Assembly: GCF_006345805.1 (NCBI RefSeq)
Contig: NW_021836156.1
Location: 27,367 to 91,366 of the forward strand
Reading direction: 5' to 3'
Length of the DNA: 64,000 nt
From: Octopus sinensis
Lineage: Eukaryota
Both the position numbers and the translations under genes were made by a program. Shown here one piece after another: positions 4,150-63,811 of the stretch. The notes under the pieces are model-generated. The model did no database searches. It was not told where the DNA came from and worked only from the letters and a program-made list of their open reading frames with translations. Position 1 is the stretch's first letter. Each line of letters starts with the position of its first letter.

Positions 4150-4650
4150 GGACCATCATGGTGTTTGGAGGGACCACTAGTGATGGCGACGTTATGCCTG
4201 CAATCATCTTCCCACACGGCCTCAGACTCAACACGGAAGCCTAAATCAAGCGCCTGATGGAGGCAGTGCTGCCCTGGGCAAAGAGGGTGGCTGCTGAAAG
4301 ACCCTGTGCCTGGCAATAGTACTCTGCACTATGCAACACAAGCAGGAGAACCCAGTCATGGTTGTCAGACAATTTCTGTGACCACATGACCCCTAACATC
4401 TGGCCACCTAACTCCCCAGACTGCAACCCCCTTGATTATTATATATGGGGCGCGGTTAAGCGAGAGACCAACAAAAGTCCTTGTCACAGCAAAGGATTAG
4501 AGCAGCATTCACCAACTTAAGCAAGGAGACCGTCCAGAAGAGTTGCAAGATGTCGTCTGTAAGCCGTGGTTGAAGCCAATGGCGATTTTATTGAATACAT
4601 TTTCCCTTTAGTATTTCAAGCTATTTTTGTGTAATTTTGTTAAATATATC
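4150..4650 (+). mobile_element. Degenerate Tc1/mariner-superfamily transposase fragment, maT (DD37D) type
   Basis: Manual translation ...WQ*YSALCNTSRRTQSWLSDNFCDHMTPNIWPPNSPDCNPLDYYIWG; 37 residues between the mutated second D position and the final D; in-frame stops. Confidence 0.8.
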
Positions 4651-4659
4651 TGCCAAAGA

Positions 4660-4978
4660 TCCCACCAATGTCATCGCGCTTCAGTAGTAGTTAATGCAAC
4701 AGCCTGGGTTTCAGGGGCCCACAGCTTTTTAATATTTTCCCAAAGAGCCTGAGGAATTTACACAAAGTAGGTGTAGGTGTTTTAAAATCAAGGTTGGACT
4801 TCTTCCTGTCGAGAGTCCCAGATGAACTTACCGCACGGCAAGAGGTGAAATTGAGGGTAGCTACATCATGAAACTCTATTCTACACCAAGTGCCACATAT
4901 TATAGGAGGATCTCAGAAATAACAGTGTTGCAAAACGGCGGTGCGCCAGCATGGCCACAGCTATGAGCTGAAACTACA
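4660..4978 (+). mobile_element. 3' end of a CR1/L2-group LINE whose tail matches SINE family A
   Basis: Translation CNSLGFRGPQLFNIFPKSLRNL...KSRLDFFLSRVPDE resembles CR1-group ORF2 C-termini; ends ggcggtgcgccagcatggccacagc...gctgaaac, like the family A tail. Confidence 0.7.
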
Positions 4979-7185: not shown

Positions 7186-7442
7186 ATTTTCTACTTGTAT
7201 CATTCATTGGATTGTGGCCATACTGGGGCATTACCTCATACGCATACACACATACACACACACAACACATACACACACTCATATATACGACGGATGTCTT
7301 TCTGTTTCCGTCTACCAAATCCATTCATGAGGCTTTAGGTCGGTCCGGGGCTATAGTAGAAGACACTTGCCCAAGGTGTCATGTAATGAGACTGATCCTG
7401 GAACCATGTGGTTGAGAAGCAATCTTCTTACCACTCAGCCAC
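7186..7442 (-). mobile_element. SINE family A, internally deleted and diverged
   Basis: Reverse complement of tail (gtggccatactggggca), core and tRNA head (cttaccactcagccac). Confidence 0.8.
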
Positions 7443-9667: not shown

Positions 9668-10725
9668 TGAGTTAAAATACCGTCAAGGTCGACCTAGCAT
9701 CTCATACTTTCGGAGTCAATGAAATTAAGTACCAGTTAAGCATTGGGGTTGATGTAATCGATTAGCCCCACCCCGACAAAATTTCAAGCCTTCTGCCTCT
9801 AGCAGGAAGAAAACACATAGCAGAAATAAGACTAAGGTAGAAAGCATTTACCTAACATGGCCCTGCTCAGTAAGATAGAAACCGGCATAAAATACTTACG
9901 AATTGAATTTATCAACCATACGGCCATCCCTGGCACCCAATATTTGCGCTTCTTTAGTAGTTACTGTATATAATGTGATATATGGGTGTTTGTGATACCA
10001 CTGGGTGAAAACACATAAATCAGAGAACTTCTTGTGTTTCGCGGTCGTCTCAGACATAAACTGAGTGTAGAAATCTTCTTTAAGATACCCGGTCTTGTAA
10101 TCTTAACTATAGCACACATTTACATAGACAAAGACACACACACATGCACTTACGCAGACACAAATACATACGCACGCACTTACATAGACAAACACACAAA
10201 TACGCACAAACACGTACGCACATACACACGCACACAGACTCACACAGACGCACACAATCACATACATACACATACACACAGACGCACACGCACACGCACA
10301 CGCACATGCATATACACACACAGACGCACGCACACGCACACTGTTGCAGACATATACATACACACGCAGACATAAATAGACACACAAACGCACACGCACA
10401 TGCACGCACATATACATACATATACACACACATACACACACAGGCACACTCACACACAAGTACACACACACATACTGGCACACACACGCATACACATGCA
10501 CACACATACACACGCACACACACAGGCACACAGAGACACACAGAGACACGCATACGTAATTCTCAGACAGACAGAAATCTCTTACATTTATCTTAAATAT
10601 ATCCGGTGGAGGAGCAAAGAAATGCGAGAAGACTTACAGTATGTGTGACATTCAAACATTTCTCAAAGAGCATTGATGATGTAAATGGACTAAGAATTGA
10701 GAAGGTTACATACAACAGCAAGGGT

Positions 10726-28405: not shown

Positions 28406-29337
28406 GATAGATAGATAGATAGATAGACAGTTATAGATTGAGAAACGAAATATACATAAGACAGATATGAAGACCAACATCACGCATACACACACACTCG
28501 TACACACACATACACACACACTCTCTCTCACATGCGCGCACATATAAAGGGAGAGTTGGCGGGGAGAGAGAAATGTTCCTTCCCTATGAAGGGATTTTTT
28601 AAATCTCATCAAGGCCCTGCCCACAAGGATCCAATTGAAGATCCTGAAGGGCAGGACTAGATTAGTGCCGCAACTGGAGTTGGGAGGAGGGACAAAATGT
28701 TGACAAATAAAATAGATGAGGTGACAGATATAAGGGACACACCAACTTTTGTTTTATTTCATTTCTTTGTTGTTGTTGTTGTTGTTGTCATTGTCTTTCC
28801 TACTAAGGGCGGGGGTGGTGTTGTAAGGGTAGGAGGAAGGATTTATTTATTTATTATTACTTTTGTCTTGCCTTAAGGGGTTGGCGCTCTTCAATATTAT
28901 AAGGTCACACGGTGTCAGGTTGGGGGTTACGGAGTAGGGGATAAGGGTGGCTAATTAACAACAAACTCCTCTATACCTCCCGTCCTCCCTCTTGCTCTAT
29001 CTCTCCTTCTTTCTCTGAAAGGTGCGCACATACACACACATATACACAAACACACACACACACACCGCACGCCCATAAATACACATACACATACTTGCAT
29101 ACGCACAGATACATATACAGATGCATAGAAACTCACAGAAATATATACACACAAACTAATGCAGATAAGCATGCATAGATACATGCATACATAATTAGAG
29201 ATATATTTACATGCATGCATACACAAATATATACATAAACATAAATACATACAAACACACTCACAAGATCATATATGTATACATTTTTATTTTATTTAGT
29301 TTCAGCTCACAAGCTGTGGCCATCCTGGGGCACCGCC

Positions 29338-32510: not shown

Positions 32511-33546
32511 CTTTTCGAAGTCCTCATCAGGTATAAGTTAACGAATCTGAGGGCTTACGCATATGCCCCCTTTAATCTTAGCATCACTTATTTTAGGGAA
32601 GATTGACTTGAGGTACTGGAAACAGCTTGTTATGTTGCAGTGCTTTGGTAAATTGCTTCATTAGGCCTAGTTTCATATGTAGTGATGGCAAAATGACTTT
32701 CTCTTTCTTAACTAGTGGCTCATGATTTACATTATAACATTCAGGAATCATAGTTTTCCGAAGTGGCCATTCTGAGCGCACATAATCTTCTAATCTGGGT
32801 TTACTGTCCCATTTGCAAAGGAAGCTCATAAACTTGGTGTATCCAGTTTGTAGCCCATTAAGTGGGGCTATTATTTTCAAGTCCACACAAATTAGCCACT
32901 CATGCCCCGTATAACTTATGCGGTCTAGAATAAAAGCGAGGTTCTTATATGTCTCTCTTAAAATGACTGAGTAAGCAATTAGCACTAAAGGCATGGTGTT
33001 CTCAATGTGGAGCAGAACCGTTTTTATGCTGTAAAGGGATGCAACTATGAATAACCTTCCCTCATTTGGATCATAGGTCAGCTCAAGGGCCTTAAATAGG
33101 TCCCTGATATCACTACAATAAGTAAAGTTGTTTTCCAAAGGGAAAAATTGCTGTAGATCTGCAGAACGCTTCCTAAACACAGTAATTCGAGCATCGTTAT
33201 CCAACAGGTTCCAATGTTGCAGACGTGAGTTTAGGACTTCACTCGGTTGCTTAGTAAGTGTTAGATCACGTACTAAATCATTGAGTTCAGGTTGGGTGAT
33301 GAAGTGTAGCTTTTTTGTCAGATTTACCACGAATTTGGACCCATCTAACTATAAAAATATTGAGTGTACTTTTATAATTTTCATAGGTTAAGTTGACAAG
33401 TACCTTAGGAACACCTGTATTAAAATTATATAACAATCCTATCATAACTTTTAGAGTTGTCAGTTTCGACCCAACCCTCTTTGCACTCAATTCCTACTGA
33501 ACCATGAGTGTATTTAACGTAAGATGGTAATTTACTAGAAAATGGA

Positions 33547-33930: not shown

Positions 33931-34320
33931 CCTACTAGAAAATAGAGGATCACAGAAAGAAACGGATGTTAAATTCGTGATCTACACACACGATGCCTCT
34001 AGAAAATGTTATTCTCATTTCCGTTTTTTTTTGTTTTCATTGTTATACAGTGTGATTCTTACTCTTTTACTTGTTTCAGTCATTTGACTGCGGCCATGCT
34101 GGAGCACCGTATTATAGAGCTTTCATCGAACGATCGACCTCAGGACTCATGTTTTTAAAACCTATTACTTACTCTATCGATTCTTTTGCCGGACCGTCAA
34201 GTTACGGGGACGTATACACAACAGCACCGGTTATCAAGTGGTGATGACGGGTGGACAAACAGAGACACAAAGCCACACGCACGCACACACACACACACAC
34301 ACATTTACACACATAAATTT

Positions 34321-35010
34321 ATATGTGAGGATATTATTTTTTATGATAATACCAGTGGCTTAGTATGTGTAAAAACACAACGGTAAAAAATATCAATTAA
34401 TAATTAAGGGTACAAGCAAGCAGTACTGGTATGCTAAACATAGCAGTCAAATGACCAAAACGCCAATTTTCATTTAAACTTCGCCATTGGTACGGGGTGT
34501 GGTTTTTTTTATTCATTTGCCCGCTTTCACCTTTGTGTTTACGTGAAAATTTCTGTTTTGGTCATTTTCACTGCTATGTTTAGCATGCCGGTACTGCTTG
34601 TTAGTACCCTTAATTATTAATTGATATTTTTTTTTTACCGTTATGGGTTTTTTTACGCATGCTACGCCACTGATATTATTATAAACAACGATATCCTCAT
34701 ATATTTAAATAATTTTTATTCACCTCGATCACCTTTTAAAAATTTACTGCGGTATTAAAAACGGGCATCGTATAAATTGGTGAGATGAATACTCTCCATA
34801 ACCCTGGGGTTAGTAAGACTCGCTGAAGATGCACGAAGGATTTTTCTCAAAGTTGAAATCACGGTGAAATGGGTATGTCTGGCCTTTTCAATTTCCTATT
34901 ATTTCCGTCATTTGTACGGGGTTTGGGGAGTGAAAATTTGTGGTTTGGCCATTTTGACTGCTATATTTAGCATGCCGGTACTGTTTGTTTAGTAACCTTA
35001 ATTATTAATA
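34321..35010. mobile_element. Penelope-like non-autonomous element: inverted plus direct repeat with a hammerhead remnant
   Basis: 34321-34470 is the reverse complement of about 34545-34703; 34930-35009 directly repeats 34543-34621; hammerhead-like motif in between. Confidence 0.7.
34818..34874 (+). ncRNA. Degenerate type I hammerhead motif
   Basis: actcg CTGAAGA ... GAAA tcac g gtga AA tgggt; UH replaced by AA, stem II poor. Confidence 0.45.
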
Positions 35011-35023
35011 TTGCTTCGGTAGT

Positions 35024-35063
<40 letters not shown>

Positions 35064-35113
35064 GGCCCCTATGCAAGGATGACACGCAAATTCGCGAAGC
35101 GTTCCATATTTTT
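35011..35113 (+). ncRNA. U6: U6 snRNA copy (probable retrocopy) fused to a SINE/LINE tail
   Basis: ttgcttcggtagtacatatactaaaattggaacgatACAGAGAagattagcatggcccct...gatgacacgcaaattcgcgaagcgttccatattttt; followed at 35119-35173 by the family A tail. Confidence 0.93.
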
Positions 35114-35471
35114 AACTTAAAGGCGGTGCTCCAGTATGGCCACAGTCAAATGACTGAAACAAGTAAAAGAGTATATATATATATATAAATATAAGACGAG
35201 CTTCTTTCAGTTTCCGTATACCAAATATACCCACAAGGTTTTGGTCGGCGCAAAGCTATAGTAGAAGATACTTCTCCAAAGTGTCACGCAGTGGGAGTGA
35301 GCCCAGAACCATGTGATTTGGAACCAAACTGTTACCATACAGCCACGACTGCGCCTAGTAAAATCTTTTTGGTCGGCGTGCTAGCGACTCTACCAGATCA
35401 AAGTTTTCGAGCTCTTTCTACTTCGTATAGTGAGCCCTGGAAGTATTTGTATATCCAAATCTCTGTCTAAT

Positions 35472-35690: not shown

Positions 35691-36638
35691 CGACTCTCTG
35701 CCTAATTACATATATATGGACACACACACACACACACACACAAAGAAAAGAAAAAGATTAGCAATATTAGCACTGAAGTAGGCTAAACACAGCAAGGTGG
35801 TGCCTCAGCCTGGCCGCAGCCCAATGGCTATAACGAGTAAAAGATATGTGTGTGTGTGTGAAAATGTATGTATTTATGTATGCGTGTGTCTGTGTATACA
35901 TATATATATCTCACTCTTTCCGGTCTCAACATTGGTGATTACTCTCTCTGTCGCTTTCTCTCTGTCGGTCTCTCTCTCTCTCTCACTCTCTCTCTCTCTC
36001 ACACACACATGCATACGAATCCGCACACACTACTTCTACCACTTTTCTCTTTCAGACTAATATTAATCAATAAATGGGTATTAATTGCCATCAACACTCT
36101 TCAGTAAGGTCAAAAATCCCTGTATTTGACCTTTCACTGACATCCAACCATACGGCGCTAAGGGAACGCGGTTTCAAATTCCATCCAGCTCACCTTCAAC
36201 GAAAAGTAATTTATTTTAATTTATGATATTCATTACTATAAAAATGTGTCTGTGCACATCTGTATGTGAGCGTACGTGTGTGTGTGTGTGTGGTGTGTGT
36301 GTGTGTGTGTGCGTGTGTATGAGTAGGCGTGTGTGTGTGTTTGTGTTTGTGTGTGCGTGTATTTATATGTGTTAGTATATGAGTATTTATATATCTTGAG
36401 CTCTGAAGACCGGTTTCTGAGATTCCGTGGCGTATGGACGTGACGCCAGTGCTTTGCAAGGTTATTCATTTGTCCTAACTGCGTGGGCTGGGGCAATGTA
36501 AATAAAATGCTTTGCTCGTGAACACAAGGTATCGCCCGGTCCAGGAAGCGAAACTACAATCTTACAATCCACATATGAGTACTTAATGCTTGTACACAAA
36601 TGTTTATTCCTGGGTATGTGTGTATTCATATTCATATA

Positions 36639-37916
36639 TCAGGTCATCCCATAAGTTCTGTCCGATTTTACCTTTTTTTTAAAATTAAATGAAATTTAAT
36701 AGTATTTTAGAACGTCTAATGGAATTAAAAATTATTTTTATGCATTTATGTGCATTTAAATTAACTAAATATTATTTTACAGAATAATAGAATTAAAATT
36801 TCTTTGATTAAAGCCCTTTCAAACATGGAAGTAGCCAAAGAGAATTTGAGGCACATAATGCTTTAGGAGTACAAAAAAGGAAACTTTGCAGCTAAAGCGA
36901 CTCGAAATATACACTCAGTTTATGGGAAAGAATGCTTGAATGAAAGAACTTTGCAAAATTCAGAAGAGGAGATTTCAGCCTTGAAGATGAAGATCGAACA
37001 GAACGTCCAGTAGAGTTTGATGATAAGATCCTTGAGGCATTACTTGAAGAAAATCCTGCATTTTCAGTTGAAGAATTGGCAATAAAGCTTAGTTCAAACC
37101 ATACAACTATTCATCGTCATCTTCAACAACTTGGAAAGGTTCCTAAACTTGGAAAATGGGTGCCTCAAGAAACGTCCAAAAGCAACCGCAAATCCCGAGT
37201 TGACATCTGCTTTTCTCTCCATTCTTGCGAACTCATTTCACCCTTTTTGGATAGACTTGTGACTGGTGATGAAAAATGGATCTTCTATGGAAATGCTAAA
37301 CGTCGTAAACAATGGTTTGGTAAAAGGGCAAAAGCTCAACCACAACTGAGAAGGGAACTTCATGAAAAAAAAGGTTCTTCTCTCTATCTGGTGAGATTGC
37401 AAAGGAGTAATTCACTTTGAATTGTTACCACCCAATGCAACAATCAATGCTCAAGTCTACTGTCAGCAATTAGAGCGTTTGAACCAAGCTTTGAAGCAAA
37501 AACGACACGCTTTAGTGAATCGAAAAGGAGTGATGTTTCATCAGGACAATGCGCGACGCCACACAGCAAAGATCACATCATAGAAGATCGAAGAGTTTGG
37601 TGGGGAAAAAATTCCTCATTCACCTTATTCTCTCGACTTTGCTCCTTCAGACTACCAATTGTTTCGTAGTTTACATAATCATATGAGGGACATAATTTTC
37701 GCAAGCCAGGAGGAGGTTGAAACTGACATTTCAGAGTTCTTCATTTTGGAACCAAAAGAGTTTTACATTGATGGGATTAAAAAGCTTGTAAATAGATGGA
37801 AGGAAGTCAAAGATAATCAGGGAAAGTACATTTATGATTAAATTTCAATTAAATATAACATTTGCTCACTTGTTTTCTTTATTCAAAATGCGGACAGAAC
37901 TTATGGGATGACCTGA
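36639..37916 (+). mobile_element. Full-length inactive mariner (DD34D) transposon
   Basis: TIRs tcaggtcatcccataagttctgtccg / cggacagaacttatgggatgacctga with TA flanks; about 1.28 kb. Confidence 0.95.
36825..37841 (+). pseudogene. Mariner transposase pseudogene
   Basis: ATG 36825, TAA 37841; motifs WVPQE, TGDEKW, FHQDNA, PYSLDFAPSDY with 34-residue D-D spacing; stops and frameshifts. Confidence 0.9.
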
Positions 37917-52477: not shown

Positions 52478-53081
52478 TTTATTCTTCTACTCGTTTCAGT
52501 CATTTTGACTGCGGCCATGCTGGAGCACTGCTCCGAAGAGATTTTAGTGGAACTCATCGATCCAAAGGCTTATTTGTTTCAAAACCTAGAACTTATTCTA
52601 TCGGACTATTTTGCCGAACCGCTAAGTTACGGGGACATAAATACGCCAACACCGGCTGTCAAGCGTTTGTTGGGAAAAATACGCACCCACTCACACAGAC
52701 ATACACACACACATACACATATATACGATGAGTTTCTTTCAGTTTCCGTCTGCCAAATCCACTCACGAGGATTTGGTCGGCCCGAAACTGAACCAGGTAT
52801 CATATGTATTTCTTTATCACCCACAAGGAGCTAAACACAGAGAGGACAAACAAGGACAGACACACGGATTAAGTCGATTATATCGACCCCAGTGCGTAAC
52901 TGGTACCTAATTTATCGACCCTGAAAGGACGAAAGGCAAAGTCGACCTCGGCGGAATTTGAACTCAGAACGTAACGGCAGATGAAATACAGCTACGCATT
53001 TCGCCCGGCTTGCTAACGTTTCTGCCAGCCCCTTGTATCATATGGTTGGGGAGCAAACCCCTTACCACACAGCCACGCCTG
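52478..53081 (-). mobile_element. SINE family A interrupted by a family C copy (52807-53030)
   Basis: Colinear halves around the insert; flanking duplication gtatcatatg. Confidence 0.8.
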
Positions 53082-53395
53082 CTTAAGTCAGAATCGTGCT
53101 GGGAGTCACTTCCGCAGAGTATAAAGACTGTATAGGGAACATTTTATGTTAAGGTTTTTGATTTAATCGAGTTTCGTAAATTTCATATGCCATTTTTCCA
53201 TATGTAGAGTTGGTGTAACTTTCTTAAAAAAGACTATCACAAATAAGTAAAAACACTTCATGTTCTATATTAATGCTTCCCAACTTGGGGGTCTGCGAGG
53301 ATGATTCGGTTCTTGACTGAAGATTAGAGGCTTCGAAAGACCCGTCTGTGTTTTTTGTATCGTCTATTTGAATGTTTTGCGTTCTTGTCCCATTT

Positions 53396-53436
<41 letters not shown>

Positions 53437-53521
53437 GACAGGCTTCTTTCAGTTTCCGTCTACCAAATCCAATCAAAAAGCTTTGGTCGGCTCGAAGCTG
53501 TAGTAGAAGACATTTGCTCAA

Positions 53522-53662
53522 TATTATTCAGGTCACTGCCTGGAATCGAACTCGGAATCTGGCGGTTAGTAGCCCGCGCTCTTAACCACTACGCTCACGG
53601 GTAGTGATTAAAAGAGCAGGCAACTAACCCCAAGATTCCGAGTTCGATTCCAGGCAGCGACC

Positions 53663-53723
<61 letters not shown>

Positions 53724-53871
53724 TAATAATAATAACATCGAAAAATACCTTAGGAATGAGAAACCAGGTTCGAAATTTCCCCAAGACACCTGAAGAAGGC
53801 TGGAGGTTATGTCAGCCGAAACGTTGTGTTAACAACAAGGAAGAGGAGGACAAATATCCGTCAAATGTAAA
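53522..53871 (+). mobile_element. tRNA-headed, hammerhead-containing short element, copy 2, with an inverted extra head
   Basis: Minus-strand head 53522-53594 abuts plus-strand head 53598-53662, then (AAT)n, hammerhead and the same 3' end as copy 1. Confidence 0.82.
53785..53830 (+). ncRNA. Minimal type I hammerhead ribozyme
   Basis: gacac CTGAAGA a ggctg gaggttatgt cagcc GAAA cg TT gtgtt; intact core, ACGU palindromic mini stem III. Confidence 0.8.
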
Positions 53872-53884
53872 CGAGTGTAAACAA

Positions 53885-55950
53885 TGTCAATAATTAAGCA
53901 TCAAGGTTGTGCTGTCAGAGCCAGGGCGCGTGTTCTAAAACACGAGGGGACGAAAGCCGTTGGATGGGCCCGAGTGGTAGAGGTACAACGTAGCAACAAA
54001 GCTACAATTCGGTCTTTGACGGGTCGGGACGGCCGTATGCTATACGAGTCCAAGCAAATGTGTACGGAATTTCAGTAGCACTTCGCCGAACTGTTTGGGG
54101 TGCGCGATGTGTCGGGGACGGAGATGAATTTCACCTCCTACCTCGGCGGTATGCCTCGCCTTTCGGCTAGGGACGCGGAGTTCTGCGAAATGCCGATAAC
54201 AGCCAAAGACATACATGACGCGATGACGAGCTGCACAAAAGAGGTCTCTGGTCCTGGATGGTCTACCCTTCGAGCCTTGTCTTCATGTGCCAAACTTGTT
54301 CGGTGATCACTTGGCGAATGTCTACCACAATTCTATTCTAGTCTAGGCACAAGGCCCGAAATTTTGGGGGAAGTGGCCAGTAGATTAGATCGATCCCAGT
54401 ACGCAACTGCTATTTAATTTATCGACCCCGAAAGGATGAAAGGCAAAATCGACCTCGACGGAATTTGAACTCAGAACGTAAAGACAGACGAAATACCGAT
54501 AAGCATTTCGCCCGGCGTGCAAACAATTCTACCAGTTCTCCGTCTTAATGTCTACTACAATTGGCAGCAGAAGGGGAGAATACCCGATACTGTGAACCGT
54601 GTTGCAATGGTGCTGCCGAGAAAGGACTTGAGCAAGGAGGACCAAATAGATAATTTTAGGCCCATAATTCTCTTAAATGTAGATTATAAGATTTTGGCCA
54701 AGGTGTGAGCCAAGGGATTGGCGCTTCTCGTCGGTAAGCTGTCGGTGACGCGCAGACTCGCACTATTCCGAACACATCTATCCACGATAACCTCCACCTC
54801 ACGCGCTACATCATAGAGAGGGAAGGGAAGGAACCTGGTATGGGTAGGGCTCTGATCAATTAGGATTAGTCAAAAGTTTTCGACGAGGTCGACTATCAAT
54901 ACTTGGAGGCTGGATCGCTGCAATGTATAACGGCATCTGTACGGTGGTCAAAATAAACGACCATCTATCGGAATCGTTTAGCACCACTCACTCGGTCCGT
55001 CAGAGATACCCACTCTCTTCGCTTTTGTACGTGCTTACTATCGAGCCATTACTGAAGAAGATGGATATTTCGAGGGGCATCCCGCGTTGTCTAGGATGCG
55101 GAAGGCACGTGTCAGCTTATGCAGATGACGTCACCGTAATAGCGTCGGATAGCTCGGAAATCTTGGAGATTGGCTCTACCTTAAGAGATTACGAAGCGGT
55201 AATTAATCAGGACAAGTCAGTGGGCCTGCAGTTCGGCACCTGGAGAGGCAGGGCCATGCTAAGCAACAGCCTGCTAGGGCGCTGGACGGAAGGACCGGTT
55301 AAATTACTTGGTATCTGGTTTGGTCCGGACCTCCAGGTGGACAAGAACTGGGGGATGTGACGAGCAGGGTAGCCAATCTCACCTAGAAATGGGTTGAGAG
55401 GAAGCTGTCCCTGAAAGGTCGGGCGAAGATGGCGAATGCATGCATCGCCTCAGTCATATACTTCCGCCTGACCGTCATCTCTTGCCCTGCTACATGGCTG
55501 ACCCAAGATGGAGCGCCTGCTCTTCAGCTTTCTGCGGAAGGGATGTGCTCCACTCGTCAGACGGTCCATCTGCTGTCAACAACCGCTGAGTGGCGGACTG
55601 GGAGTGCCGTGGCTAATGATGCGAAGACACGTGCCGAGGCTGCAGCATCACCAGGAGTTTCTTGACGGTGAGAAGGTGTGGTCATCGTTTGTCAAGCAGG
55701 GTTTTCTGCAGCTCATCTCATTGACAGGGCTACAGTCCTTGGACAAGCGTAGACCAAGAAGTGGCGCTTGGTACCAGGAGTGTCGGCAAGCGCTAACAGT
55801 CGACCGCATTGCCAGTCGAGCAATGCGGATAGTGAAAGTTCCACTATGGAGTTGTATAGGAGATTAGTGGCGGGCAAGAGCGACGACGTCCTCGGGGAAA
55901 GTCTGGGTTTCAAGAGGGATTAATTAACTGGTCTTTTTCGGAGGACTTTC
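53885..55950 (+). mobile_element. Decayed Tx1/L1-group LINE, RT region
   Basis: GPDGLP.E, NFRPIILLNVDYKILAKV, SVRQ..PLS.LLYVL.IEPL, YADDV, INQDKS, KLLGIWF, GGLG.P; stops and frameshifts. Confidence 0.88.
54333..54546 (-). mobile_element. Family C-variant SINE inserted in the Tx1 element
   Basis: TSD aatgtctaccacaatt / aatgtctactacaatt. Confidence 0.85.
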
Positions 55951-56269
55951 AAGCACCACCGCCATTATCACTGTCGCCTCTGCCTCTATCACAACTGCAG
56001 CTCATACTATTACTATCACCCGAGCAAGAGGAGTAGAAGAAGCGTCATTGGATAGTGAGGGAGGTGGTCAAAGTGTGACACACGGGAGCGGTAGTGGAGC
56101 GATAGAGTAGTTGTATACTGTCAACATAACGTGACAGTTCCGTAAAGGAAATTACACCACCGCTATTTAGCCCTAGGAAGCATCGACGCTTCCTGTCGGC
56201 TTTGACACATTTCCTGTGTCCTTATATTTGCGAAGGGGAGGCAAGCACCCCCACCAGCTAGGATCAGCA

Positions 56270-56315
56270 CCTGAAGGCATGCATGTTTCTGGGTCTTGCC
56301 CGTCATCAGACCAGG
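56270..56315 (-). ncRNA. Type I hammerhead motif with a mutated cleavage triplet, in a GC-richer element (about 56100-56357)
   Basis: cctggt CTGATGA c ggg caaga ccc a GAAA catgcatg CC ttcagg; palindromic stem III, U16.1 replaced by C. Confidence 0.6.
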
Positions 56316-56355
56316 GTAGCAAGTCCTGCTAGTTGAGATACTTGCCAAGCCTTCG

Positions 56356-56403
<48 letters not shown>

Positions 56404-56406
56404 GTG

Positions 56407-56448
<42 letters not shown>

Positions 56449-56672
56449 TGTGGTGTGTGTGCGTGTGTGTGTGTAAATAATGAGGGTGATAAAATGAATA
56501 TTAATTTTATTAACATCAATTTAAAACCAGTAGCCTAGCATATAGAAAAATCTGAAAATTCAGAAAAATTGTATTACATGCATATAAGAAAGGATTCCCA
56601 CAAAGTGGACATCCAATATGCTAGAAGTAGATCACCTACGATCTAACCACGAATATATTTGATTGGGCGCAT

Positions 56673-56809
56673 GATTTTCAAAATATAACGGTGTGGTTTT
56701 TGTTACTAGTTGGGTGGGTGAGGTATGTGTTAAAATTAACAGTAAAATATGAAAAAAAAATCGCCCAACCAACTGGTAATGAAAAGCACACCGTTATGTT
56801 ATGAAAATC
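56673..56809. repeat. Imperfect ~49-bp inverted repeat
   Basis: gattttcaaaatataacggtgtgg...tgggtga versus tcgccca...cacaccgttatgttatgaaaatc. Confidence 0.75.
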
Positions 56810-57012
56810 CAATCAAATTTAAATGCTTATTCTTTGAACTGGATTATACCATATCGTATCATATCATATCATGTCATAACATATAGTATATGTATCATCG
56901 CAATTAAATTCAGTATCGATCACAACTATCTGACGGACGGGAACATGAAACTCTGAGTAACAGTATACATACACACACACATACACACATATATATACAT
57001 TTATACATACGT

Positions 57013-57046
<34 letters not shown>

Positions 57047-57206
57047 GTATGTATATATACATGGTTGGATATATAGTGCTGAAGTGATGAATGTAGGGAT
57101 GTATCATGCGTACCATATTTATCACTGAAAGAAACAAATCCCATCCCAATAACTACGTGACCCAGTTCTCATGCAAGCCTACAGTTATAGAATAATAGTT
57201 TTGAAA

Positions 57207-57525
57207 GACTCCGCCGGTTACGACGACGAGGGTCCCAGCTGATACGATCAACGGAACAGCTTGCTCGTGAAATTAACGTGCAAATGGCTGAGCATTCCAC
57301 AGACACGTGTACCCTTAACGTAGTTCTCGGGGATAATCAGCGTGACACAGAGAGTGACAAGGCAGACCCTTTGAAGTACAAGTACAACTCATTTTTGCCA
57401 GCTGAGTGGACTGGAGCAACGTGAAATAAAGTGTCTTGCTCAAGGACACAACGCGTCGCCGGGAATCGAACTCACAACCTTACGATCATGAGCCGAATGC
57501 CCTAACCACTAAGCCACGCGCCCTC
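57207..57525 (-). mobile_element. Chimeric SINE: family B head and core with the family D 3' half
   Basis: Core gtgtccttgagcaagacacttt...ccactcagctggcaaaaatgag joined to ...gaactacgttaagggtacacgtgtctgtgg...; TSD agaataata. Confidence 0.85.
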
Positions 57526-57819
57526 AGAATAATATTTAAAATACATATGAATATTCCAGCATCACGATCAGTCCCACCACCACCACCACAAAAAAAGTTC
57601 AAGAAAAATGAGTAAATAAAAAGAAAAGAGTAGGTGAAACGGGTATAAAGTGATTATAGAATCATTCTTAAGGAGTCGTTACCATTATATTAGAATGGTG
57701 TAGATACACACCATTTCTTCTGATTTATATAAAAACAAAAGACTTTTGTATATACTATATAAAAAATGTTTAAAATTCTGTCTTTGTGTGTGTGTGTGAG
57801 TGTGTGTGTGTGTGTGTGT

Positions 57820-57968
57820 GTGTTGTAAGAAGCTTTCTTCCCAACCACATGGTTCCTGGTTCTGTCCCACCGCGTTGCACTTTGGGCAAGTAGTCTTCTA
57901 CTATAGACTCGGGCTGACCAAAGCTTTGTGAATGGATTTGGTAGACGGAGTCTGAAAGAATCCCATCT

Positions 57969-58017
<49 letters not shown>

Positions 58018-58232
58018 CTTTGTGTCTGTATTTTCACCTCACACCAACATCGCTTGACAACCAATTTTAGTGTGTTCACGTCCTCGTAACTTAGCGGTTC
58101 AGCAAAAGAGACCGATAGAATAAGTAACTAGGCTTACACAGAGTAAGTCCTGGGGTCGATTTGCTCGACTAAGGCGGTGCTCCAGCATGGCCACAGTCAA
58201 ATGACTGAAACAGGTAAAAGAGTAAAAGAGTA
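57820..58232 (+). mobile_element. SINE family A, slightly 5'-truncated
   Basis: Core, microsatellite and tail present. Confidence 0.85.
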
Positions 58233-58289
58233 TGCGCAATATTTGTGCATTTATCAAGGGTGCTCAATGATAAGTATCCTCGTTATAAA

Positions 58290-59075
58290 CTTCTTGACAG
58301 AGATGGGCATCAAAACGTGCCCCTGAACCTTCTTACAGTTCAGACCTTACTCCCTGTGATTTCTTATTTCTTTATTGCCCACAAGGAGCTAAACATTGAG
58401 GGTACAAAGAAGGACAGACAAAGGGATTAAGTCGATTAGATAGACCCCAGTGCGTAACTGGTACTTAATTTATTGACCATGAAAGGATGAAAGGCAAAGT
58501 CGACCTCGGCGGAATTTGAACTCAGAACGTAACGGCAGACGAAATACCTATTTCTTTAATGCCCAGAAAGGGCTAAACACAGAGGGGACAAACAAGGACA
58601 GACACACTGATTAAGTCGATTACATCGTCCTCCTGTGCGTAACTGGTACTTAATTTATCGACCCCGAAAGGATGAAAGGCAAAGTCGACCACGGCGGAAG
58701 CTGAACTCAGAACGTAGCGGCAGACGAAATACCGCTAAGCATTTCGCTCGGCGTGCTAACGTTTCTGCCAGCTCACCGCCTTAATCACTTAATCGCCTCC
58801 TTAATCACTCCCTGCGATTTCTGATTATTCCCCAAACTGAAGGAGAAACTTAGGGGCAGTCCTTTTTAATACAAAGGAGGTTGTGGCAAGGGTCCTGGAA
58901 CCTTCATTTTGGAGGACTGCCATGGGGCCTTCACGAAGTGGCTGGTGTGCTAAAACAAGTGCACTGAAGTTATGGGATCCTACTTTGAAGAAGATTAAAG
59001 GGCACTTAGTGTTTTGTACTTGAAATTAATAAATGTCTTTCTTGAAAAATTCTGAGAACCTCTGGAATGAAACTT
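58290..59075 (+). mobile_element. Mariner 3' fragment interrupted by a family C dimer
   Basis: SYSSDLTPCDF*LFPKLKEKLRG reads across the insertion site. Confidence 0.7.
58362..58782 (-). mobile_element. SINE family C, tandem dimer
   Basis: Junction cgaaatacctatttc at about 58540; TSD actccctgtgatt / actccctgcgatt. Confidence 0.88.
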
Positions 59076-59275
59076 AATCTTTCTTTCTTTTGTTTTACTT
59101 GTTTCACTCATTGGACTGCGAACATTCTGGAGCATTTCCTTGATAGCTTTAGCCGAACAAATCGGAGCAAGTACTCACCTTTTCTCTATAAAGTCCGGTA
59201 CTTTCTCTATGGGTTCTTTCACCGAACCGCTAAGATACTTGGACGTAAATATACCAGCACCGTCTGTCAAGTGTT

Positions 59276-59547
59276 ACTCTCTCTCTTTTACTCTCTTTTA
59301 CTTGTTTCAGTCATTTGACTGCGGCCATGTTGGAGCACAGCCTTTAGTCGAGCAAATCGAGCCCAGGACTTATTCTTTGTAAACCTAGCACTTGTTCTAT
59401 CGGTCTCTTTTGCCGAACCGCTAAGTTACGGGGACGTAAACACACCACCATCGGTTGTCAAGCGATGTAGGGGGGACAAACATAGACACACACAAACACA
59501 CACACACACACACACACCACACACACACACAAACACACACACTCACA

Positions 59548-59595
<48 letters not shown>

Positions 59596-59755
59596 CGTGC
59601 TTCTTCAGTTTCCGTCTACCAAATCCACTCACAAGGCTTCGGTCGGCCCGAGGCGATTGTAGAAGACACTTGCCCAAGGTGCGACGCAGTGGGAATGAAC
59701 CTGGAACCATGTGGTTGGTAAGCAAGCTGCTTACAACACAGCCACTCCTGCGCTT
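59276..59755 (-). mobile_element. SINE family A, full length, nested in an older relative (59090-59275 and 59765-59890)
   Basis: Complete reverse complement from tail to head. Confidence 0.88.
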
Positions 59756-59908
59756 CCTGTTAGAGGTAGCACAAACACAAACACACGCACACTCACGTAT
59801 ATACACAATGGGTGTCCACACACCCTCCGTCCACCAAATTCACGCTCAAGAAACTGGTCAGCCACCCCAGCAGAAATACTTGCACAGAAATACCTGCACT
59901 TCAGTACT

Positions 59909-60290
59909 GGGAAGCACTCCGTCGGTTACAACGACGAGGGTTCCGGTTGATCCGAATCAACGGAACAGCCTGCTCGTGAAATTAACGTGTAAGTGGCTGA
60001 GCACTCCACAGACACGTGTACCCTTAACGTAGTTCTCGGGGATATTCAGCGTGACACAGAGAGTGACAAGGCCGGCCCTTTGAAATACAGGTACAACAGA
60101 AACAGGAAGTAAGAGTGAGAGAAAGTTGTGGTGAAAGAGCACAGCAGGGATCACCACCATCCCTGCCATAGCCTCGTGGAGCTTTAGGTGTTTTCGCTCA
60201 ATAAACACTCACAACGCCTGGTCTGGGAATCGAAACCGCGATCCTGTGACCGCGAGTCCGCTGCCCTAACCACTGGGCCATTGCGCCTCC
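59909..60290 (-). mobile_element. SINE family D, full length
   Basis: TSD acttcagtact / acttcggtact. Confidence 0.9.
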
Positions 60291-60989
60291 ACTTCGGTAC
60301 TATGTATATATACAGATGCTTACACTTTGTACACACAGTGTCGCTGCGTGGTGACAGAGAGGGATTTTTTGGAACCCGCTTGAGTCCTTCATTTGGATCT
60401 TATTGGTGAATGAGTTCCTTGTATAACTGTCCGTGGGGCCACTGCCGGTAAACTCACTATTAATTAGCGACTCTCTTTTTTTTTTTGTACTCTCTTTTAC
60501 TTGTTTCAATCATTTGACTGCGGCCATGCTGGCAGCACCGCCTTTAGTCGAGCAAATCGACCCCAGGACTTATTCTTTGTAAGCTTAGCACTTATTCTAT
60601 CTGTCTCTCGAATAAATAAGCATTACATTTGACAGAATAATTTAGATGCTAAAGTGTTAAGCCTGTACTGGGGTTGTTTTAATCGAGTAAGCCTTCCGCT
60701 CAAAATTTCGGCCTTCTGCCCCAATCAGACACGGTAATTTCAGATTACATATATTTCTTTATTGCCCACAAGGTGGCCAAACATAGAGGGGACAAACAAG
60801 GACAGACAAAGGGATTAAGTCGATTAGATCGACCAAGTGCGTAACTGGTACTTTATTTATCGACCCCAATTTCAGATTATATATGGCTTGTGCGATGAAG
60901 TAAAAATGTCACCAATATTCTATAGAATACCTGGCCTACAGTACTATTTCATCACTAGGGGTTATGTTTTGGACCCTAAAACTCATCAG

Positions 60990-61150
60990 GACGGCTACCC
61001 TGTTTTCATGGTCCATCGCAAGATGCCGGTTCATCGCAAGGTTACTCGTTTACAGCTGAGGGGACTGGGGCAAGGTGAAATGGAGCGTTTTGCTCAAGAA
61101 AACACGCACTGTCCATACCAGGTATCGAAACTGCAGTCTTACGATCGTGG
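60990..61150 (-). mobile_element. Old diverged SINE family B
   Basis: cgatcgtaagactgcagtttcgatacc...ttcttgagcaaaac...ctcagctgtaaa on the minus strand. Confidence 0.65.
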
Positions 61151-61445
61151 GTTTTATCACTTTGACATCGTAACGTGTCTTGGCTGATAGAAGCAGGTCC
61201 GGATTAGTTAATCAGACAGAAGTCGATACTTTTTGTTTATGTGTTTATAACTTTAAGACGCTGTTCCGTGCTGATCCGTGCCGATATCTGTGAACTAATA
61301 ATAAATCGTTATACGCACGGTTTTTACTGATAGATAACAACAGATGGACGTGCTGTGTTTACAAATACAACACACACACACACACAAATATATATACATA
61401 AGGGAAAGACCCCCCTTCAGTCAGTATTGACGATAGGTTTGCACT

Positions 61446-61824
61446 TATTTCCTTATTGCCCACAAGGGACCACGCATAGCGGGGACAAACAAGGACAGAC
61501 AAAGGAATTTAGTCGATTACATCGACCCCATGGCGTAACTGGTACTTAATTTATCGACCTCAGCGGAATTTGAACCCATACGAAATACCTATTTCTTTAC
61601 TACCCACAAGGAGCTAAACTCAGAGGGGACAAACAAGGACAAACAGACAAACGGATTAAGTCGATTATATCGAGACCAGTGCGTAACTGGTACTTATTTA
61701 ATCGACCCCGAAAGGATGAAAGGCAAAGACGACCTCGGCGGAATTTGAACTCAGAACGTAACAGTAGACGAAATCCGCTAAGCATTTCGCCCGGCGCGCT
61801 AACGGTTCTGCCAGCTCGCCGTCT
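61446..61824 (-). mobile_element. SINE family C, tandem dimer
   Basis: Junction cgaaatacctatttc at about 61581. Confidence 0.82.
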
Positions 61825-61960
61825 TTATCTCATGACGAACATTGAAGTAAGCTGCCTATCGACTTTGCATATACGTTATGTACGATACATTAATGACGAT
61901 CCTAAGAATATCTTTTGTGCGTGTATTTATCTGTTACAAGGTATTTTATTTTCGTCATTG

Positions 61961-62334
61961 TGGAAGCACTCCGTCGGTTACGACGACGAGGGTTCCGATC
62001 AACGCAACAGCCTGCTCGTGAAATTAACGTGTAAGTGGCTTAGCACTCCACAGACAGGTGTACCCTTAACGTAGTTCTCGGGGATATTCAGCGTGACACA
62101 GAGAGTGACAAAGCCGGTCCTTTGAAATACAGGTACAACAGAAACAGGAAGTAAGAATGAGAGAAAGTTGTGGTGAAAGAGTACAGCAGGGATCCCCACC
62201 ATCCCTGCCGGAGCCTCGTGGAGCTTTTAGGTGTTTTCGCTTAATAAACACTCACAACGCCCGGTCTGGGAATCGAAACCGCGATCCTATGACTGCGAGT
62301 CCGCTGCCCTAACCACTGGGCCATTGCGCCTCCA
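61961..62334 (-). mobile_element. SINE family D, full length
   Basis: TSD tttcgtcat. Confidence 0.9.
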
Positions 62335-62844
62335 CTTTCGTCATGTCTAAAAGAAAAAAAAAATTACCTTTACTAGTGTGGCATACTTGTCGCAAAATGC
62401 TGTCTTTGCCAGATGAGACTATGACAGGAGAAAATGTTCACGTAAGGGTAGGCGAAAAGAAATATTAATTCATCAGAGACAACTACAGAAGAAGGGATAC
62501 AACGAAAGACACGTTGAGGTTAAATAGAGTTTTTTAAAGGTAACTCGGCATAAACAGAAACAATGAAAATAAAGTAGAGAAACAGAATTTTATATATATA
62601 AATATTAAGTAAAATGTAATAACCATTATTTATGCCCTGTTTATATATATATATATATAATATAGAAATATTTATATATACATATATATATAATATATTA
62701 TATATATATATATATATATGAGTGTGTATGTGTGTGTATGTGTGTGTGTGTTTCTATGTATGTATGTGTGTGTGTGTTTCTATGTATGTATGTGTGTGTG
62801 TGTTTCTTGTATGTATGTGTGTGTGTGTGTGTGTGGGTGTTTGT

Positions 62845-62865
62845 GTATTGCTTCGCTAATACATA

Positions 62866-62896
<31 letters not shown>

Positions 62897-62949
62897 GGCA
62901 CCTGCGCACGGATGACACGCAAATTCGTGAGACGTTCCATATTTTTTTT
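62845..62949 (+). ncRNA. U6: U6 snRNA copy (diverged retrocopy) fused to a LINE-type tail
   Basis: gtattgcttcgctaatacataaaaattggaacgatACAGAGAagattagcatgg...gatgacacgcaaattcgtgagacgttccatatttttttt, then ggcggtgccctagcatggccacagccccaaggctgaaac. Confidence 0.9.
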
Positions 62950-63035
62950 ACTGGCGGTGCCCTAGCATGGCCACAGCCCCAAGGCTGAAACATATATAAA
63001 AGTAATAAATAAATATACATATATATATATATATA

Positions 63036-63079
<44 letters not shown>

Positions 63080-63811
63080 GCATACATACACACACCCATG
63101 TTATATACATGTCTCTGTATGTACATCATATATGCGTGCGTGCATGTGTATGTGTATGAGTGCGTGCGTGTGTGTATATAATATATATATATTCCTATCT
63201 ATTACATATATATATATATATATATGTAATATATAGGAATATAGACAGCATTTTGCGACAAGCATACCACACTAGTAAAGGTAATTTTTTTTTCTTTTAG
63301 ACATGCTGTACAATGACGAAAATAAAATATAATATATATATATTATATTATATTATATAATACAATATTATATTATTTATATTATATTATATTATATTAT
63401 ATTATATTATACATTATATTGCTTTCCAGATATATGAACAAACATTAGTAACTGTCTGAATTACCTCCCTTGAATCGGATTTTACTAAACAGTGGACGCA
63501 ATTCTTTCCCTTCCTAATTTTCTCTGTTCTGTATCGTGCAGAGTGATCGCAGCTGGTAGGAAGACTGGCGTAATTGTTTGATACCTAAATGTTTCATAGT
63601 ATTTCTATAATTGCCAACCATTTAATGGATTTCCGTTAATTAAGTGTTCGTGTTAGAGTCGGATCAAGTATTTTATTATCAGCATTAACAGCGTGGTTTT
63701 TCCACTTTCATCAATAATATATATATATACATTTATATATATATAATATATATATAATATATAATATATATATATATATATATATTGTGTGTGTGTGTTT
63801 GTATATGCATT

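What the first reader, a model, noticed from the sequence alone, without database searches (positions are those of the whole stretch)
62845..63005. Second U6 chimera with a different tail variant and a remodelled 5' stem
Seen: the tail starts at almost the same point (ggcggtgc) but its hairpin is cagc-cccaag-gctg, closer to the LINE end at 4937-4975 (cagc-tatga-gctg) than to family A (cagtca-aa-tgactg). The U6 5' end reads gtatt-gcttcgct-aatac, which still pairs, and is shorter before AAAATTGG. Inference: the U6-tail fusion arose at least twice at a similar breakpoint, or this is an older subfamily; the retained pairing hints at a variant source gene rather than random decay.
Basis: partly seen in the sequence, partly recalled or inferred. 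Interest (0 to 1): 0.7.

Follow-up and report, generated by a model that had tools for sequence, protein, structure and literature searches.

The report
U6 retrocopy with a LINE-type tail
A damaged DNA copy of the splicing RNA U6 is joined to the 39-base hairpin end that a jumping gene and its short parasites share in this probably octopus genome; it is likely a one-off copying accident of a kind known from vertebrates, and a second, likely independent one lies 28 kb away.

Summary
The sequence is as described. 62845-62949 is a full-length U6 copy (Rfam 96.6 bits) ending in T8. It is followed by ACT and a 39-nt two-hairpin tail that is also the 3' UTR of a CR1-like LINE (4937) and the end of an abundant SINE. 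The host is probably an octopod.

Two inferences fail. The tail is not closer to the LINE: it differs by 7/39 from the LINE end and by 7-8/39 from the nearest SINE copies, so it is a third variant. The 'remodelled' stem is decay: against the sister copy at 35008 it has one pair-breaking and one neutral change plus a 4-nt deletion, and half of random double mutants fold as well.

Independent origin is supported by different tails, different junctions and no shared change in the conserved core. Both copies do share two 5'-stem changes against an intact outside U6 gene, which points to one lineage-specific donor U6.

Best reading: a dead U6/retroposon-tail chimeric retrocopy, a known kind, not found described in a cephalopod in my searches. 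Left open: no genome was held, so a high-copy U6-headed family is not excluded.

The parts
62845..62949 (+). Full-length U6 snRNA retrocopy (copy B), ending in T8; 6 private substitutions and a 4-nt deletion
62950..62952 (+). Junction ACT, of uncertain origin (donor bases or untemplated)
62953..62991 (+). 39-nt two-hairpin LINE/SINE tail, third variant (CAGCC/CCAA/GGCTG); predicted LINE recognition signal
62992..63015 (+). AT-rich 3' terminus running into (TA)n; no target site duplication found
62638..62844 (.). (TA)n/(TG)n microsatellite directly upstream; no TATA-like box in the 70 nt before U6
35009..35113 (+). Sister U6 retrocopy (copy A), T5 end; its first base or two come from the flanking repeat
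35114..35170 (+). Junction AACTTAAA and family-A SINE tail of copy A
4640..4976 (+). Decayed 3' end of an APE-RT (CR1-like) LINE; frame stop near 4920-4922, tail from 4937
29299..29337 (-). Orphan LINE-type tail inside (TA)n, starting at the same boundary with no U6
35796..35834 (+). Decayed tail with the same two C-G pairs in hairpin 2 as copy B

Best explanation
This is a damaged, promoterless U6 copy joined to the 39-nt hairpin tail shared by a CR1-like LINE and its SINEs, likely made in a single retrotransposition event by that LINE's reverse transcriptase and likely independent of the sister chimera at 35008. Inferred mechanism: the LINE protein recognises only RNAs that carry the two-hairpin tail. 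It nicks AT-rich microsatellite DNA and primes at the tail's 3' end, then copies the ~40-nt tail and goes on into a complete U6 RNA. The U6 had probably been ligated to a tail-only RNA fragment beforehand (RtcB route, shown in human cells only), or was reached by a template switch; the odds are about even, with a slight lean to ligation. The near-identical breakpoints likely reflect a property of the tail (the 5' edge of the structured module), not common descent. The tail donor was probably an older SINE or LINE subfamily, not family A and not the copy at 4937. The U6 donor was probably this lineage's own U6, whose 5' stem is one base shorter than that of L011. All changes peculiar to copy B are likely later decay.
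For: Shown: U6 identity and full length. The tail starts 14 nt after the stop of a LINE ORF2-like frame that is 65% identical over 55 aa to P0002, whose cluster-mate P0003 carries endonuclease and RT domains. The tail folds into two hairpins with changes on both sides at 4 of 12 pairs across 12 copies; 0 of 500 shuffles reach the covariation score, though the copies are related. A tail-only insertion without U6 starts at the same boundary (29337), as does the tail at 7235, and LINE-SINE likeness also stops there. The 70 nt upstream are microsatellite, whereas the intact gene L011 has an AT-rich TATA-like stretch there. Copy B has two substitutions at highly conserved Rfam positions and has lost TACT. 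B's tail is further from any other tail than its U6 decay predicts: P=0.007 at B's private rate, 0.17 if the rate is doubled. From papers: human U6/L1 junctions end in about 4-8 T (PMC6789731, passages). Platypus U6-L2/Mon-1 and lizard U6-L2/RTE/AnolisSINE2 chimeras have short tails and small or no TSDs (PMC4476161, passages).
Against: No TSD was found, so the one-event origin is not shown directly. Both junctions contain ACT right after the T run, and both copies share two 5'-stem changes, which a common master would also give. Two chimeras within 64 kb would be rare if the genome held only ~300 (P about 0.007 for a second, 2.8-Gb genome assumed) and unremarkable only near 10,000; the window was, however, picked because it held two. 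The binomial support for a separate tail donor weakens to 0.17 under a doubled rate. The CR1 assignment rests on motifs I recall, not on a tree.
Confidence: 0.72

Rival explanations
1. A and B are members of subfamilies of a U6-headed non-autonomous retroposon (SINEU-like) amplified from one or a few master loci, transcribed from flanking promoters and mobilised by the CR1-like LINE.
For: Two near-full-length U6 plus tail-only elements lie 28 kb apart. They share two 5'-stem changes and ACT after the T run. An O. vulgaris annotation lists one undescribed 'SINE U-L1' family of 52,753 bp with two recent insertions totalling 353 bp, about this size (PMC13282606, parts 1-2 of 3 and its supplement); its consensus lies on Zenodo and was not seen, so it may not be U6.
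Against: The tails belong to different variants with a compensatory pair change. Apart from two sites where both differ from L011, no core change is shared. The T5/T8 run would stop Pol III before the tail, and snRNA genes have no reported internal promoter (PMC4494074, passages). Tail donors are abundant in the window, which is Kojima's sign of independent chimeras (section 19).
Confidence: 0.15
2. Copy B comes from a distinct, functional U6 paralogue with its own remodelled 5' stem.
For: Five terminal pairs GTATT/AATAC are intact; the 22-nt fold is -3.5 kcal/mol, z -2.87, with 5 of 200 shuffles as good.
Against: The pair closing the UUCG loop is C-C, and in the native register the energy is +0.3 kcal/mol against -3.2 for copy A. 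Half of random double mutants fold as well. The same copy has lost TACT and two conserved core bases.
Confidence: 0.06
3. The U6 copy and the tail inserted separately, a tail-only insertion landing in the T run of an older U6 copy (or the reverse).
For: Orphan tails exist and favour AT-rich sites (29337). No TSD ties the two parts together.
Against: The same order, orientation and position is seen twice in 64 kb, and both of 2 U6 copies in the window carry a tail.
Confidence: 0.07

Closest known systems
U6-L2, U6-Mon-1, U6-RTE and U6-AnolisSINE2 chimeras of platypus and Anolis (Doucet et al. 2015, PMC4476161; passages read)
   Same: U6 joined 5' of a short 3' piece of a 'stringent' LINE or its SINE; small or absent TSD; both LINE-tail and SINE-tail versions occur.
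   Different: Here the host is an invertebrate (probably an octopod) and the partner is CR1-like; that paper had only one unresolved CR1 case, in turkey. Both copies keep a full or nearly full U6, whereas 39 of 40 platypus copies are 5'-truncated.
Human U6/L1 chimeric pseudogenes (Moldovan et al. 2019, PMC6789731; passages read)
   Same: Complete U6 3' end with 4-8 T joined head-to-tail to a 5'-truncated retroelement.
   Different: Human copies have variable L1 lengths and 6-19-bp TSDs; here the partner is reduced to a ~40-nt tail with no poly(A) and no TSD found.
SINEU of crocodilians (Kojima 2015, PMC4494074; passages and section 19 read)
   Same: snRNA-derived head on a short non-autonomous element without an internal promoter.
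   Different: SINEU heads are U1/U2, and family status rests on shared master features and absent tail donors; here the head is U6, tail donors are abundant and no master feature is shown.

Membership tests
U6 chimeric retrocopies (U6/LINE or U6/SINE) | U6 sequence 5' of, and in the same orientation as, a retroelement 3' end | tested here: met
U6 chimeric retrocopies (U6/LINE or U6/SINE) | U6 3' end with about 4-8 T at the junction | tested here: met
   T8 in B and T5 in A; range from PMC6789731
U6 chimeric retrocopies (U6/LINE or U6/SINE) | No upstream U6 promoter | tested here: met
   70 nt upstream are (TG)n; octopod PSE consensus not available, so only the TATA position and the repeat nature were judged
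U6 chimeric retrocopies (U6/LINE or U6/SINE) | Whole chimera inside one target site duplication | tested here: inconclusive
   No shared word of 5 nt or more for B; only 5-mers for A; flanks are microsatellite, and stringent LINEs leave short or no TSDs
CR1-clade LINE as mobilising partner | APE endonuclease plus RT ORF2 ending just before a structured 3' UTR | tested here: met
CR1-clade LINE as mobilising partner | Placement in the CR1 clade on an RT tree | not tested
   No named reference RTs at hand; assignment from recalled C-terminal motifs of P0002/P0003; Atlas names only 'jockey family'
SINEU-like U6-headed SINE family | Many copies sharing master-specific junction and mutations | tested here: inconclusive
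   Only 2 copies; junction and tail differ, two 5'-stem changes are shared; no genome
SINEU-like U6-headed SINE family | Absence of abundant elements that share the 3' end (Kojima's argument against independent chimeras) | tested here: not met
   24 tail rows in the window; 450, 304 and 339 contigs laid on the tail in three runs
Functional U6 gene | Intact conserved core and upstream promoter | tested here: not met

The most novel reading that the evidence does not exclude
Octopod genomes hold a large population (thousands) of U6-plus-tail elements: either a U6-headed retroposon family, the first SINEU-like family with a U6 head, or a capture hotspot where U6 is repeatedly joined at the 5' edge of the CR1-like hairpin module, with successive LINE/SINE tail subfamilies dating each wave and recording a lineage-specific U6 5' stem.
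Probability: 0.17. Interest if true: 0.62.

Novelty: new member of a known kind. Interest (0 to 1): 0.3.

Why it matters
As it stands, it extends U6 chimera formation to a CR1-like partner in a mollusc and shows the smallest LINE piece that seems enough for mobilisation: a 39-nt double hairpin with compensatory changes, a ready test substrate. If the genome-wide count is high, or the copies descend from masters, it would show how an snRNA-headed SINE is born, and the fixed breakpoint would help separate RNA ligation from template switching outside mammals.

Tried and rejected
No whole genome is held, so no genome-wide count was possible.

Pattern scans for the U6-tail junction gave 9 viral-contig stretches with a loose 19-base pattern, not examined and taken as chance, and 0 in metagenome contigs with a strict pattern. 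The tail pattern gave 0 viral, 0 in GTDB and 1 metagenome hit that reads as unrelated bacterial DNA.

Run search with 52800-62560: 20 of 24 rows hold part of it, best share 0.68; no RNA holder listed.

Reads laid on the tail only, 62950-63010: raw run X22 laid 0 of 12.9 million reads, which is no test. No contig reached 99% and none of the 18 of 94 loose-end rows shown looks like U6. This says nothing on chimera number, because the tool drops human-like records without notice.

The bacterial promoter scan is not suited to U6. ARAGORN found 0 tRNA genes in the window.

Paper searches for an octopus U6 chimera or U6 sequence found nothing relevant: 0 papers; 1, unrelated; 8, unrelated by title; 5, unrelated by title; 0; only Kojima 2015; Doucet 2015 and a hagfish SINE paper seen as listing only. 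PMC11838501 was seen as outline and abstract; PMC8967140 and PMC4758252 as passages, with no U6 chimera mentioned in the passages shown. The library lacks most subscription papers, and the O. vulgaris repeat library on Zenodo could not be seen; either may already hold this element. L013 is a partial U6-like hit cut by its contig end and was not used.

Full report
What is there. Rfam finds two U6 copies in the window and nothing else at gathering level: 35008-35113 (copy A, 103.5 bits) and 62845-62946 (copy B, 96.6 bits), both covering model positions 1-105. Copy B continues with a T run to 62949 (T8), the bases ACT, a 39-nt tail at 62953-62991 and an AT-rich end that merges into (TA)n. Upstream lies (TA)n/(TG)n microsatellite. 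Copy A has T5, AACTTAAA and a tail at 35122. No target site duplication of 5 nt or more was found for B.

Host. The window is rich in microsatellites and SINEs. The closest named relative of its LINE is a protein of Argonauta hians (61% over the RT half; the only species name among the 120 of 3755 hits listed). I infer an octopod, probably Octopus; this is inference, since run names were coded and no genome is held.

The tail. It occurs in 24 rows in the window, mostly as the end of a SINE with a central microsatellite ('family A'). At 4937 it follows, by 14 nt, the stop of a frame that is 65% identical over 55 aa to P0002. P0002's cluster-mate P0003 is a 954-aa endonuclease-RT protein. So the tail is essentially the whole 3' UTR of an APE-type LINE; CR1 membership is from motifs I recall and was not tested on a tree. 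All variants fold into two hairpins. In 12 chosen copies, 4 of 12 pairs show changes on both sides and 91% of cells pair, above 499-500 of 500 shuffles and far above the slid controls, with the caveat that the copies are related. It is therefore predicted to be the LINE's recognition signal.

Is B's tail LINE-like? Hairpin 2 comes in three types by its two inner pairs: family A has T-A and C-G, the LINE end and the orphan at 29337 have C-G and T-A, and copy B has C-G and C-G, as does the decayed copy at 35796. B differs from the LINE end by 7 of 39 and from the nearest family-A copies by 7-8 of 39, while A differs from those copies by 1-3 (20 of 24 rows aligned). B's stem is 5 bp with a 4-nt loop, like family A. 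So it is a third variant, not a LINE-side one. Laying public contigs on the tail alone gave 450, 304 and 339 records in runs of three organisms, with 41, 30 and 25 at 95-99% over the part that fits and none at 99% or more. The best-supported loose ends (18 of 94 rows shown) read like a SINE context...CCCTTCAA before and AGTAAAAGATAAAA after, similar to older SINE copies such as 52311. B-like tails are thus part of a broad, old tail population. That call cannot count U6 chimeras, because human-like records are dropped from it.

Is the 5' stem remodelled? A scan of GTDB returned L011, a stray eukaryote-type contig with an intact U6 gene between tRNA-Trp and tRNA-Ala; I use it only as an outside reference, not as the octopus gene. 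Against it, A and B share four differences: loss of C4, C14-to-T, A85-to-T and C101-to-T. A has 4 private changes, one of which is flank. B has 6 private substitutions and the loss of TACT. In the stem, B's private changes are G13-to-C, which breaks the pair closing the UUCG loop, and G16-to-A, which turns G-U into A-U. In the native register B scores +0.3 kcal/mol against -3.2 for A. Of 1377 double mutants of the A-type hairpin, 687 fold at least as well as B and 911 keep 6 or more of 7 pairs. B's retained pairing is therefore no evidence of selection. The two shared stem changes do suggest that both copies came from one U6 whose stem differs from L011. A's support for the lost C4 is weak, since a paralogous flank shows that A begins only at 35009-35010. 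B also has two substitutions at highly conserved positions of the Rfam model, so it is a pseudogene.

One origin or two? For two origins: different tail types including a compensatory change, different T runs, and 6-8 against 0-3 donor bases at the junction. B's tail is also further from its nearest relatives than its U6 decay predicts (P 0.007, or 0.17 with the rate doubled). The similar breakpoint needs no common ancestor: an orphan tail at 29337 and the tail at 7235 begin at the same edge without U6, and LINE-SINE likeness ends there too. For one origin: ACT follows the T run in both, the stem changes are shared, and two copies in 64 kb are unlikely at a few hundred per genome (0.007 at 300, 0.20 at 10,000), though the window was selected for having two.

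Mechanism. Shown: the anatomy, the shared tail and the damage. Inferred: target-primed reverse transcription by the CR1-like protein from the tail's 3' end in AT-rich DNA, continuing into U6. Moldovan et al. show in human cells that RtcB can ligate U6 to 5'-OH RNA fragments, giving junctions with about 4-8 T (passages). Doucet et al. ascribe platypus and lizard chimeras with stringent LINEs and their SINEs to template switching (passages). T5 and T8 with complete 3' ends fit either route; I lean slightly to ligation. [quoted passage not shown]

Known or new. This is the known class of U6 chimeric retrocopies. My searches found none described for a cephalopod or resolved for CR1. However, the O. 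vulgaris annotation lists an undescribed 'SINE U-L1' family (52,753 bp; two recent insertions, 353 bp together) that may be this element; I could not see its consensus. Earlier notes of this scan report like chimeras in other genomes; they are unchecked and were not used as support.

Verdict. A real feature, a new member of a known kind; interest 0.3. The open, more interesting possibility is a high copy number or a U6-headed family (0.17), which one cmsearch on an octopus assembly would settle.

Noticed in passing
window 61942-62405 and 63243-63329: Copy B sits inside an inverted repeat (64 nt at 95% plus an exact 20-nt outer piece), like a MITE or an inversion scar; no other copy in the window. 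The U6 chimera could have been carried as cargo.
   Followed up: partly
window 61960-62345: A SINE with a tRNA-like head on the minus strand splits the left arm of that inverted repeat and is flanked by a 9-bp duplication TTTCGTCAT; copies at 59914 and 33552 are about 93% alike.
   Followed up: partly
window 34059-35356: Copy A lies in the central microsatellite of a minus-strand family-A SINE, together with a palindromic element (34321-34704) and a third copy of its arm, which abuts U6 directly.
   Followed up: partly
window 7197-7442 (-): Family-A SINE head joined straight to a tail, with the 3' body missing.
   Followed up: partly
window 4150-4640: Decayed Tc1/mariner transposase fragment (WPPNSPD motif; family name recalled) directly upstream of the LINE end.
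   Followed up: no
window 54848-55867, 36944-37420, 32593-33348: An RT fragment (RVT_1, E 3.7e-07), a mariner-like HTH/DDE fragment, and a 250-aa frame with no Pfam hit that looks transposon-derived.
   Followed up: no
L011 (JAAEKY010000052.1) 1-624: A contig in a bacterial MAG holds an intact U6 gene between tRNA-Trp and tRNA-Ala: likely eukaryotic contamination of that MAG. L013 holds a similar partial match.
   Followed up: partly
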